64,000 bases of DNA, from positions 83,080,001 through 83,144,000 of the forward strand of contig OX597819.1 in assembly GCA_951406725.2 (NCBI GenBank), written 5' to 3'. A program made the translations under genes and the position numbers. Positions 6,443-38,001 of the stretch are shown piece by piece; positions within the stretch are counted from its first letter, which is position 1, and each line of letters opens with the position of its first letter. The notes beneath the pieces were generated by a model. The model was not told the DNA's origin. It saw nothing but the letters and a program-made list of their open reading frames with translations, and did not search any database. The DNA comes from Octopus vulgaris. Lineage: Eukaryota.

Positions 6443-6521
6443 TGTCTCCGATGACGGAATACAATCTTTATTCAATACTATGATCCACATGCCTGGTTAT
6501 TCTAAAAACAGATGTAAGACA
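6443..6521 (+). ncRNA. Degenerate hammerhead-like motif
   Basis: TGTCT-CCGATGA-C-GGAATA...TATTCT-A-AAAA-CAGATG-TA-AGACA. Stems I and II pair; the core has U4C and G12A. Confidence 0.55.
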
Positions 6522-6619
6522 TTCTGTCTTTTATCATAACTACTTTGAACTATGTTTATATCAGTGGCTACTATATAACAAAATACTATATCGGTAAAAT
6601 TTATTTTTAAGTATATGAT

Positions 6620-7012
6620 TATAAAAATATGATTATAATTAAGGGCACTGGAATGCCAACACTGATACGTTGAAAGTAGATGTCAAATGTTTACAATCCA
6701 CTCGAAATTTGTTCTCTATTTACAACCCAAGGCTGAATGCGAGGTTATGAGCAAGAAGATATGTATATGTATTGTTCTGTTATATATTGTCGGTATATCT
6801 GTACTGAGGAGTGTAAAGTAATCTTTATTACAGAGCACGAAATCTTAAGATATAGGATTATCCGAAATCTGTAAATCTTCTTGCTCATTACCTTGCATTC
6901 GGCCTTGGGTTGTAAACAGAGAACAAATTTAGAGTGGATTGTAGACATTTGACATCTAGCGTATAGGCGTTGGCATTCCAGCGCCCTTAATCATAATTAT
7001 ATTTTCATAATT
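6620..7012. repeat. Foldback element: ~130-bp imperfect inverted arms (6631-6760 / 6875-6997) around a hammerhead-containing loop
   Basis: Arm ...ttacaacccaaggctgaatgcgaggttatgagcaagaagat pairs with atcttcttgctcattaccttgcattcggccttgggttgtaa... Confidence 0.85.
6797..6858 (+). ncRNA. Type I hammerhead ribozyme-like motif with canonical core
   Basis: ATCTGTA-CTGAGGA-GTG[22 nt]CAC-GAAA-TCTTAAGA-TA-TAGGAT. Palindromic stem III ATCTTAAGAT, AUA triplet, imperfect stem I. Confidence 0.7.
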
Positions 7013-8040
7013 ATGTACGGAATATATATATATATATATATATATATATATATATATATATATATATATATATATATATATATATGTGTGTGTGTGTGTG
7101 TGTGTGTGTGTGTGTGTGTGTGTGTGTGTGTGTGTGTGTGTATGTATGTATGTGTATGTATGTATGTATGTATGTATGTATGTATGTATGTATGTATGTA
7201 TGTATAGTTAACAGATGAGATGCAGTGATGTTTATAGAAAGCACTTCGTAGTGCTCAAATGATTTGAACTTGCACTCCGAAATCGTTACCGAGGACCAAG
7301 CCTTCAGAATAAAGAGTACCTGCAGGAGGAATCCAGGTGAGCAGTCATGGAGATAGTGATGCAAACAAACGAATAAAACTGCTTGGATTACACACGCACG
7401 TACGCACACACATGTAAATAGAGAGAATGAGAGCAAAAACGTAAAACTTGCAGACGATGAATATTTAAGTATAAATATATAGATATTTATATATTAACAG
7501 AGTAAACTTAAACAGAGTACAAAGACACAGAAAATTAATGGGGAGAAGATATGGTGTTACAAATTCGACACCTCTTTCTAAGGGTTCAGAGTTACTTCGT
7601 GATATTGGCAGATGTAGTTCACAAAAGTATGTAACCAGTAATGGAAGCAAATAAACATGGGGTAAATCTGACCAAATGGTTAGGGTGTTGCATTTACAAT
7701 CGCAATATCGTGGTTTTCATTATCCAGACCGGCCGGACAGTGTGTTTTGTTCTTGAACAAAAAGCTTCGTTTCTTGTTGCTCCAGTTCATTCAGCTATAA
7801 ATGAATAACAAATTGCGTCCAATTTAGATGAAATTTTTGTAATCTCGGTTACTTATAACCCATGGAAACTAGGTAGCCAACGCTATGAGTCCTATGGATC
7901 TAGACAGCAATGTCCAGAGGACTTACTATATAAATAAATAGATAAACATTAAAAACAACAGAAGAAATTGCTTTGAGAACTTTATCATGAAAAAAGGTGC
8001 GTTATGCCAAACCTTGACAACAATATTAACATTTTTATCC

Positions 8041-8225
8041 TTTAATCCTAGATTTTCAAGCCTCGAGAGATGGTTTGAAGAGTTTAAAAAATCCAAGCTT
8101 TCTCATAATATCAAGTTGCAAAGCAAATGTGGATCAAGTGATAAGAAAACTACTTAAGAATTTATTCCACGTTTAAGATTCTTGCTAGACGGAAACAGTC
8201 TATTCTGGAAGAAAATGCAAAATAA
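8041..8225 (+). mobile_element. pogo/Tigger transposase fragment (inverted copy of 9148-9330)
   Basis: FSSLERWFEEFKK (CENP-B HTH GWF motif) followed by a degenerate DETxLFWK-like stretch. Confidence 0.6.
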
Positions 8226-8339
8226 TTTTTCTATCAAGAATCAAGAACAGAAAACCGTTATTTTTGGTGTGTTATGAAATAAAATGTTATTGGCTATGTT
8301 GCTTTCAGAATTCTGGATTAAGATACATTGTATGACTTT

Positions 8340-35663: not shown

Positions 35664-35752
35664 ACGTGTTCAGAATATTCACCTCTGTACTCAAATGCTC
35701 AATGGAATGATAAAAAGTCGTGGAAATCAAGAAATTAATCGCCTGAAATGCA
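35664..35752 (+). CDS. Exon 3 (type B, phase 2 to 1): (Q)RVQNIHLCTQMLNGMIKSRGNQEINRLKC
   Basis: Acceptor taatcttttacag|A, donor CA|GTGAGT, 89 nt, frame compatible with both neighbours. Confidence 0.82.
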
Positions 35753-36830
35753 GTGAGTATATAATTCATATAATTCAAATATCTAGTATTTGATTCTCAT
35801 CTATGAAATGAGATGGGATATCATATCTTGCTCTAAATTAGAATCTACTGCATAACTTACAAATTCGAATTAGCGGCAAAGTACTGACTCTAAAACTGAG
35901 ACTTGATCATGCTGAGATCAACTATCAATTAATATATAAAGCAATGAATATTTAAACTTACTTGGAGGTATGTTCGTAAAACAATAATTAGTTCGCATTT
36001 TGAAATAGAATAGCATGGTATAAATAAAATTTAAGGCCTTGTGCTTCCAGAAGAAAGGATTTATTAATGTTGAAAAAGTGTGACACGCTGACAATCACAT
36101 TTACTATATGAGATATGTTTAATTTGGGGGAAACTTTATTTCAGCTAATGTGTTGTGTATATTATTTATATATATATATATATATATATATATATATATA
36201 TATATATATATATATATTCGAAACACGCTGGTGTTGAACTAGGGACAGCTGATGAAGGGGATTTTTCCTTGTGTAGTTGTCTTGTACTCTGTTTTTTCGT
36301 TGTTAAAAAAATGGTCCGTTCCATGCTAATTTTACGTTTTCGTGTCTCGTTGAGTTCTATGTCTATTTGTGGTGTCCTGTACACACGTATATATATTTAT
36401 ATATGCATGTATATATACATGTAGATGTAGGTACGTACATATATGTTTGTATGCATGCATATATTTTATTTATTACACTATTGTATGACTGAGTGCCTTC
36501 GCGTCGATTCGATTCGATTCGTTTCGTTTCGTTTAGTTTCTCCTTCTTCTCTAAGCTGGTTTATATATATATATATATATATATATATATATATATATAT
36601 ATATACATATATGTATATACATATATATATATACATATATATATACATACATACATACATACATACATACATACATATATATACATACATACATATACAT
36701 ATATATATATATATATATATATATAGAGAGAGAGAGAGAGAGAGAGAGAGTTTACGAAAAAACAAAAGACGAAGACAGGTGGTGTACAAAACAAACAGAT
36801 GTATTAGTATAACGCTCAGTAATAGAAAAA

Positions 36831-36870
36831 GTCTCTTACGTTTCGAGCCTACGCTCTTCCACAGAAAGGG
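36831..36870 (-). ncRNA. Minimal hammerhead-like motif with variant core inside a (TA)n-associated repeat (36745-36930)
   Basis: CTTT-CTGTGGA-A-GAGC-GTAG-GCTC-GAAAC-GTA-AGAG. Confidence 0.5.
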
Positions 36871-37683
36871 ACACAGAAAAAAACAAGGAGAGAAAAAAGA
36901 TGTGTGTAGTGGCTAACGATCTATCATGTCTATATATATATATATATATATATATATATATATATATATATATATTTCGGTGCGAATGGTTTTGTTACAA
37001 GGTGCCGTATTTTACTATCCTGTAAATAATAAAAATGGTATTTTTTATATAAGCTTAAAGCTTATGGCGATTACCATGCAATGTCTAAGGGAAATAGTCT
37101 AATAATGGGCCATAGAAGCCCTCGACAGAAAAAGAAGTCTTTCCTAGGAAAAATAAAACAAAAATAATCAAACAAAAGGCTAAATGCGTTTGTAAAAGAA
37201 TTCAGTGTTCAGTATGTTGGTTCTGTATTCAGTATGTTAGCCACAGGAATTTCTATCAAAGAGACATGGTTAAACAAAGTTGTACATCATCTCATTCTTT
37301 TTCTCACAGAACCACTCTTTCTCTTATTATCACTCCCACTGACACCATCAACACTACTACTTTTAATAAAACATCATCAGCTCTCCCTAAATTTCTTTGT
37401 CTTTCTCTTCCTCTGTTTTTCTCTTTGTCTCTACCCTACTCTTTCTCTTTCTCTCTCTCTCTCTCTCTCTCTCTCTCTTCGCCACCATCCTCACCGTCTC
37501 TATGCCTAATATTACTTTCATCCCACCATGAGGAATAGTAGAAGTGTCATTGATGAATGAGAGAGAGGGTCAAAGTGTGACACAGAAATTAATTTTCACA
37601 TTTATTATACTGTATTTTACACACTCACACACACACAAACACACACACATATATATATATATATATATATATATATATATATA

Positions 37684-38001
37684 ATAACAAGGATTCCAGG
37701 TGCAAGTGCATTACGGCTGTTTCAAGTGGCTCCATTTAATCGATCAATGAAAACATTACATCAATTTTGAAATAAACCGTTCACCTCGGAAGCATACGAC
37801 CATATAGATTTCCAACATACAGGATACATCATTTTAATTTTTTGGCAAATTATAATGGTGTATCCTGTATGTTGGAAATCTGTATGATCGTTGCTTCCGA
37901 GGCAAACAATTTATTTCAAATTGATGTAATGTTTTCATTGATCAATTAAATGGACCCACTTGAAACGGCTGTAATGCACTGATAACTTGACATCCTTGTT
38001 A
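37684..38001. repeat. Long palindrome (~150-bp arms), each arm a degenerate hammerhead
   Basis: Near-perfect inverted arms. The right arm reads TGCTT-CCGAGG...CCACTT-GAAA-CGGCTG-TA-ATGCA. Confidence 0.85.

What the first reader, a model, noticed from the sequence alone, without database searches (positions are those of the whole stretch)
6443..37978. Recurrent CCGANGA (U4C) core in hammerhead-like motifs of apparently unrelated repeats
Seen: four motifs with different flanks (6443+, 28715-, 32742+, both arms of 37684-38001) have type I geometry with paired stem I and a palindromic or near-palindromic stem III, but CCGA instead of CUGA. Two also have a C-A pair closing stem II. Random decay would be unlikely to create a CpG repeatedly at the same core position. 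Established: Penelope-like elements carry minimal hammerheads with palindromic stem III that act as dimers, and U4 is normally highly conserved. Inference: a lineage-wide variant core that is attenuated, editing-dependent or active in a dimer.
Basis: partly seen in the sequence, partly recalled or inferred. Interest (0 to 1): 0.7.

Follow-up and report, generated by a model that had tools for sequence, protein, structure and literature searches.

The report
Amplified U4C hammerheads in animal repeats
Three unrelated repeats in this animal genome carry the fold of a self-cutting hammerhead RNA with the same one-letter change in its normally invariant core; in the one repeat family that could be checked the change is shared by about half or more of its many copies, so it is likely a tolerated, weakened form and not random decay, though cutting is untested.

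Summary
Mostly real. Three motifs (6443+, 28759-28715 minus, 32742+) are well-formed type I hammerhead folds with CCGANGA in unrelated repeats; 0 of 60 shuffles gave any. The fourth (fold-back) has CCGAGG, not CCGANGA, and is doubtful. Penelope-like loci of other organisms gave 1 C4 among 29 motifs. U4C is already known as a rare viroid variant that still cleaves; its amplification in animal retroelement families was not found in print. Best reading: a tolerated, weakened, dimer-dependent hammerhead. Editing dependence has no support. Cleavage is untested.

The parts
6443..6521 (+). Motif 1: type I hammerhead fold, CCGATGA (6448-6454), C6455.A6504 opposition, 6-bp stem II; G12 reads A (6505), so this copy is likely dead
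6611..7018 (.). Fold-back repeat ending at a (TA)n run, of the inverted kind described for Penelope-like insertions; encloses the CUGA motif
   Evidence: structure described in PMC8557442
6802..6854 (+).
8259..8642 (-). Broken remnant of a Penelope-like reverse transcriptase (end of RT and thumb); nearest element ORF remnant, on the strand opposite to motifs 1 and 5, link not shown
   Evidence: relatives carry PF00078, PF26215, PF01541
28504..28986 (-). 353-bp repeat unit present 1.37 times (28857-28986 repeated at 28504-28633, 97% alike); high-copy family; retrozyme-like size
28715..28759 (-). Motif 2: compact type I hammerhead fold, CCGATGA (28753-28747), C28746.A28733 opposition, palindromic stem III, predicted cleavage after 28721; position 4 (28752) is C in 48-79% of family depth
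32742..32868 (+). Motif 3: type I hammerhead fold, CCGAAGA (32746-32752), GGCC/GGCC closing a long extended stem II, perfect palindromic stem III
37685..38001 (.). Fold-back repeat (arms 86% alike) beside (TA)n; each arm has a hammerhead-like 3' half (37962-37978 +, 37723-37707 minus) and CCGAGG (37897 +, 37789 minus) about 58 nt upstream; doubtful, possibly a decayed motif with a short deletion in the 5' core

Best explanation
These are hammerhead-fold motifs in unrelated repeats, likely derived from Penelope-like retroelements, and in the one family tested the C at position 4 is shared by about half or more of the copies, so it is likely a tolerated change that would leave a weakened ribozyme predicted to cut only as a dimer. 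Shown: geometry, non-chance, the C4/U4 split and the near-fixed C.A opposition in the 353-bp family. Inferred: the palindromic stem III cannot close in one motif, so two motifs (tandem units, or two RNAs) pair through it; a protonated C4 could stand in for U4 in the U-turn, which would lower the rate without abolishing it; source copies with C4 kept multiplying because low cleavage suffices, or does no harm, for a template that must keep its 3' end. The rare canonical contigs (U4 with G-C or A-U closing stem II) suggest the order canonical, then C.A, then C4.
For: 0 in 60 shuffles. Family of motif 2: 3212 and 2391 contigs laid in two DNA-guess runs; U4 share of depth 21.2, 47.8, 51.7, 47.4%, C4 the rest; CpG at 28745 changes in only 4.2 and 4.6% of the DNA runs; no change is listed at C3, G5, A6, G8, A9, G12-A15.1, U16.1 (40 rows shown, 10 weaker rows hidden); majority letters restore perfect stem I and stem II pairs; rare contigs show paired changes in stem II. 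Stem III self-duplex -10.7 and -11.1 kcal/mol with no hairpin. U4C lowers activity in vitro yet supports viroid infection (PMC3088659 passage; PMC9608096 passage). Protonated C replaces U in another U-turn (PMC4105743 abstract). One more C4 motif sits 190 nt behind a GIY-YIG ORF end in L029.
Against: No cleavage data. A mutational scan found low activity for single changes in the CUGA turn of a type III hammerhead (PMC9901934 passage). Only 1 of the 3 good motifs had its family tested; motif 1 also lacks G12. No motif is tied to an element ORF in this window. Core conservation in a young family may reflect age and not selection. Contigs were laid on a C4 copy, which may under-count diverged U4 subfamilies, and summed depth is no copy number. 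The window copy of motif 2 prefers another fold by about 9 kcal/mol.
Confidence: 0.55

Rival explanations
1. The C4 motifs are inactive passengers: the ribozyme is dispensable for copying, and source copies that happened to carry C4 were amplified.
For: Naiad elements lack canonical hammerheads yet reach very high copy numbers (PMC8557442 passages). Motif 1 has lost G12 and the fold-back motif has lost part of its core. Minimal PLE hammerheads cut poorly even with U4 (PMC4209133). In the RNA-guess runs the deepest single contigs appear to be of the canonical type (inferred from matching depths).
Against: Three unrelated families share the same change while other core positions hold; in family 2 position 4 is the only core site listed as changed at high share. 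Free drift would hit other core sites too.
Confidence: 0.27
2. C4 is favoured: weaker cutting leaves more full-length template, so C4 source copies out-multiply U4 ones and the change has been fixed several times in this lineage.
For: 3 of 4 good motifs in the window have C4 against 1 of 29 in PLE loci of other organisms (Fisher p 0.003; 0.018 if motif 1 is dropped). Genomic copies extend beyond the cleavage site, so their templates were uncut there (inference). The change creates a CpG.
Against: The window was flagged because of these motifs, so the p-values are optimistic; control loci cluster in few samples; U4 subfamilies are also abundant (21-48% in DNA runs).
Confidence: 0.1
3. The CCGA copies are scattered single mutants of CUGA families.
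For: Not excluded for motifs 1, 3 and the fold-back, whose families were not tested; U4C arises as a sporadic variant in viroid-like RNAs.
Against: Excluded for motif 2 (C4 is 48-79% of depth); the same private change in two further families is improbable.
Confidence: 0.05
4. The ribozyme is switched on by C-to-U editing of position 4.
For: U4 share is higher in two RNA-guess runs (52, 47%) than in the DNA-guess run with the same species label (21%).
Against: The other DNA-guess run has 48% U4. Much of the RNA excess traces to a few deep contigs with 8-33 other differences, that is other genomic copies; without them U4 is about 41% and 6% (inferred from matching depths). A-to-I editing cannot turn C into U (general knowledge). 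The runs are only guessed to be RNA and are not from one individual.
Confidence: 0.03

Closest known systems
Type I hammerheads of metazoan Penelope-like elements with palindromic helix III (Cervera and de la Pena 2014, PMC4209133; Hydra-clade motifs in Craig et al. 2021, PMC8557442 File S2)
   Same: Type I order, short stem I, palindromic stem III, extra nucleotide after A9, repeats beside (TA)n with inverted copies; a C.A opposition with CUGA core is listed for PLE-X1_cBra and U.U for many Hydra-clade elements.
   Different: All representatives I saw in Fig. S3 and all motifs in File S2 have U4; their descriptors fixed it. Here C4 is at or above half in one high-copy family, and motifs 1 and 3 have 50- and 100-nt stem II regions. 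No ORF link shown here.
[quoted passage not shown]
   Same: The same CUGA to CCGA change; reported to keep enough activity in vivo.
   Different: There it is a minority variant in an RNA replicon with tertiary contacts; here it is carried by a large share of a genomic repeat family with a weak, dimer-type stem III.
Animal non-LTR retrozymes (Cervera and de la Pena 2020, PMC7229834; bioRxiv 10.64898/2026.07.22.740005)
   Same: Unit of about 350 bp with one type I hammerhead, no ORF, partial tandem, many copies (motif 2 family).
   Different: Only 1.37 units here with one motif; core is C4 with C.A; circular RNA and tertiary loop contacts not shown.

Membership tests
Type I hammerhead ribozyme | Three stems round the core, stem I open, in type I order | tested here: met
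   Motifs 1-3; 0 in 60 shuffles; paired changes in stem II among family contigs
Type I hammerhead ribozyme | Core C3, G5, A6, G8, A9, G12, A13, A14, A15.1-U16.1, H17 | tested here: met
   Met for motifs 2 and 3; motif 1 fails at G12; fold-back arms fail at A9
Type I hammerhead ribozyme | U4 of the CUGA turn | tested here: not met
   C4 in motifs 1-3; known natural exception in viroids, so this lowers 'canonical member', not 'works like one'
Type I hammerhead ribozyme | Self-cleavage after position 17 | not testable with these tools
   Only contigs were available; table 6 lists no start or end pile-up, and contigs cannot show one
Penelope-like element hammerheads | Palindromic helix III suited to dimers | tested here: met
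   Perfect 8-nt palindromes in motifs 2 and 3; 6 of 8 in motif 1
Penelope-like element hammerheads | Located in the terminal repeat behind an RT/GIY-YIG ORF on the same strand | tested here: inconclusive
   Only remnant found is an RT-thumb piece at 8259-8642 on the opposite strand from motifs 1 and 5; nothing beside motifs 2-4
Penelope-like element hammerheads | Partial tandem or inverted insertion structure, often at (TA)n | tested here: met
   Fold-backs 6611-7018 and 37685-38001 abut (TA)n; partial tandem round motif 2; none seen for motifs 1 and 3 themselves
Non-LTR retrozyme (motif 2 family) | About 300-bp non-coding unit with one type I hammerhead, in tandem copies | tested here: inconclusive
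   353-bp unit, 1.37 copies, one motif; arrays elsewhere in the genome not seen
Non-LTR retrozyme (motif 2 family) | Expressed as linear and circular unit-length RNA | not testable with these tools
   Family contigs occur in two runs guessed to be RNA; no listed holder is on record as RNA

The most novel reading that the evidence does not exclude
Several independent Penelope-derived families in this lineage have converged on a C-turn hammerhead (protonated C4) that cuts slowly, only as a dimer and in a pH-dependent way, and this damping is what lets them out-multiply canonical copies; CUGA-fixed searches have missed a whole abundant class of such ribozymes.
Probability: 0.15. Interest if true: 0.72.

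Novelty: new variant of a known kind. Interest (0 to 1): 0.46.

Why it matters
Published searches for these motifs fix CUGA, so abundant CCGA families would be invisible, and some elements called 'ribozyme-free' might not be. The motif 2 family holds natural U4 and C4 versions, and canonical and C.A-closed versions, in one sequence background. That makes the open question of whether Penelope-type hammerheads must cut, and how fast, directly testable. If C4 copies turn out inactive, the result would instead support the view that these ribozymes are passengers.

Tried and rejected
Rfam scan at E up to 5: no hammerhead family among the 150 of 185 matches listed. No whole genome is held, so no genome-wide census. 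Family motifs found nothing in viral, metagenome or prokaryote contigs. Pfam found nothing relevant in 20 ORF pieces near the motifs; two homologue searches with decayed pieces and the Atlas search gave nothing usable. No RNA holder listed for the stretch. Idea that Naiad elements carry these motifs: three stem III strings of the window's kind had 0 occurrences in the Craig et al. supplement and File S2 has no CCGA core; I did not scan the Naiad consensus sequences themselves, so it stays open. A depth step at the cleavage site was not seen (543,653 against 511,776); the tenfold depth rise 3' of the motif is confounded by short contigs and private mismatches. The constrained fold of motif 1 used a cut 2 nt too long and is not used. 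Relaxed scans gave weak AT-rich UUGANAA hits (25314, 47205), set aside as chance. The ribozyme papers Lunse et al. 2017 and Ambros and Flores 1998 are not held.

Full report
Setting. The window is AT-rich (GC 0.29-0.43) and full of microsatellites and transposon remnants. It looks to me like an octopus genome; that is recalled pattern recognition and was not verified. No whole genome is held. Rfam lists no hammerhead among the 150 of 185 matches shown, so I used descriptor scans that leave position 4 free.

Observation. Three of the four motifs are as described. Motif 1 (6443-6521 +) has a 5-bp stem I, CCGATGA, a C.A opposition, a 6-bp stem II, but A in place of G12. Motif 2 (28759-28715, minus) has a 6-bp stem I, CCGATGA, C.A, a 4-bp stem II and a perfect palindrome. 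Motif 3 (32742-32868 +) has CCGAAGA and GGCC/GGCC closing a 100-nt region whose predicted minimum-energy fold already forms the extended stem II (hammerhead frame -25.3 against -27.5 kcal/mol). No comparable motif, with any base at position 4, appeared in 60 of 60 shuffles. The neighbourhoods are unrelated (10 of 10 pairs no better than shuffles). The fold-back motif is weaker than claimed: both arms read CCGAGG followed by T or C. It may be a decayed motif with a short core deletion, but I cannot show that. The scan also found a canonical CTGAGGA motif at 6804, with a perfect 10-nt palindrome but only 2 bp of stem I, inside a second fold-back. So the window holds three C4 motifs, one U4 motif and one doubtful case.

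Family test. One lay of public contigs was available; I spent it on motif 2 (28640-28860; 4 of the 24 runs listed). The family is large: 3212 and 2391 contigs were laid in two DNA-guess runs, 305 and 66 in two RNA-guess runs. At position 4 (28752), U accounts for 21.2, 47.8, 51.7 and 47.4% of summed depth (78, 100, 21 and 4 contigs), and C for the rest. The CpG seven bases away changes in only 4.2 and 4.6% of depth in the DNA runs, and the mirror change at G5 is not listed, so U4 marks real subfamilies and not CpG decay of C4. No other invariant core base is listed as changed (40 rows shown, 10 weaker rows hidden). The majority letters at 28720 (96-98%) and 28735 (78-88%) give perfect pairs in stems I and II, so the window copy has drifted from a better-paired family. 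The C of the C.A opposition is kept in over 99% and the A in about 90% of DNA depth. Rare contigs (0.5% in DNA) have G-C there with a paired A-U change next to it; by matching depth values these appear to carry U4 as well. Limits: depth is not copy number, laying on a C4 copy can under-count diverged U4 relatives, and the families of motifs 1, 3 and the fold-back are untested.

Background elsewhere. A decayed ORF piece at 8259-8642 (minus) matched Penelope-like RT-thumb proteins. With 20 of the 25 relatives aligned I fetched the best 80 of 532 related metagenome loci and scanned them: 36 motifs in 33 of 80 loci, 29 distinct, of which 22 CU, 6 UU and 1 CC; none in 5 shuffles. The one C4 motif lies 190 nt behind a GIY-YIG ORF end (L029). 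Window against control gives p 0.003 (3 of 4 against 1 of 29) or 0.018 without motif 1. These are optimistic: the window was flagged for these motifs, the thresholds differ (under the control's rule only motifs 2 and 3 would count), and many control loci share samples. U4C thus exists in Penelope-type motifs beyond this lineage but seems enriched here.

Mechanism. Shown: fold, palindromes, subfamily split. Inferred: the stem III palindromes form no hairpin alone but self-duplexes of -10.7 and -11.1 kcal/mol, which fits the dimer model for these motifs (PMC4209133). The window's motif 2 copy has no second motif beside it, and the fold-back arms are on opposite strands, so no copy here could dimerise in cis. 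U4C is reported to lower activity considerably in vitro yet allow viroid infection; another paper says it did not affect self-cleaving capability; a mutational scan found single changes in the turn poorly active. A protonated C can replace U in the U-turn of a riboswitch, which offers a structural route, untested for hammerheads. I put 0.55 on a tolerated, weakened ribozyme, 0.27 on an inactive passenger, 0.10 on positive selection for damping, 0.05 on scattered decay and 0.03 on editing.

Comparison and novelty. The motifs work like, and most resemble, the palindromic type I hammerheads of Penelope-like elements; the motif 2 unit also has the size of a non-LTR retrozyme. Membership of the element class is not shown by an ORF link. 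U4C and the C.A opposition are each known separately. I found no report of U4C amplified in an animal repeat family in searches for hammerhead+Penelope+U4C (0 papers), hammerhead+U4C, hammerhead+CCGA+viroid terms, hammerhead+octopus and literal CCGANGA strings (listing only, hits not read). Lunse et al. 2017, on small Penelope hammerhead variants, is not held and may bear on this. Earlier notes of this scan report U4C in phage hammerheads and C4 in a Euglena-like repeat (unchecked leads).

What I saw of each paper: PMC4209133, parts 1-2 of 4 of the text and parts 1-2 of 3 of the supplement; PMC8557442, passages, supplement searches and supplement part 2 of 59; PMC3088659, PMC9608096, PMC7229834, PMC9901934, PMC6061696, passages; PMC4105743, abstract, outline and passages; bioRxiv 10.64898/2026.07.22.740005, part 1 of 5 and passages, no supplements. 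Ambros and Flores 1998 only at second hand. Figures and Perreault's supplementary S6 and S7 were not seen.

Verdict. A real, non-random and partly new variant of a known kind: C4 is carried by a large share of at least one high-copy family and recurs in two more unrelated repeats, alongside canonical copies. Interest 0.46; it would rise with a genome census and a cleavage assay.

Noticed in passing
window 6802-6854 +: Canonical CUGA hammerhead-like motif with a 10-nt palindromic stem III inside fold-back 6611-7018, about 55 nt behind a stop whose upstream frame ends like a Penelope endonuclease tail (by eye; not significant).
   Followed up: partly
window 28703-28818 (records 15 and 20): A diverged family member with canonical G-C closure makes up 18-21% of depth in two RNA-guess runs of different studies against 0.5% in DNA runs; one contig per run, perhaps a single well-transcribed copy.
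   Followed up: partly
L029 2550-2505 minus: Well-formed minimal hammerhead with CCGATGA in the 3' region of a Penelope-like element from a marine metagenome; shows U4C outside this lineage.
   Followed up: partly
window 25697-25870 +: Frame resembling the C-terminal end of a Hydra/Neptune-type GIY-YIG endonuclease by eye; no search confirmed it and no hammerhead was found behind it.
   Followed up: partly
window 15464-20308 +: Large broken non-LTR retrotransposon-like ORFs with RT motifs and a zinc-knuckle/endonuclease-like tail, apparently two related elements, interrupted by (AAG)n and (AAT)n runs.
   Followed up: no
window 11420-11821 minus; 30973-31786; 41659-42382 minus: Remnants resembling a Helitron/PIF1 helicase and mariner transposases (recognised by eye).
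   Followed up: no
window 28656-28680: Family depth here is about ten times that at the hammerhead core; may be a segment shared by more subfamilies or 5' truncation.
   Followed up: no
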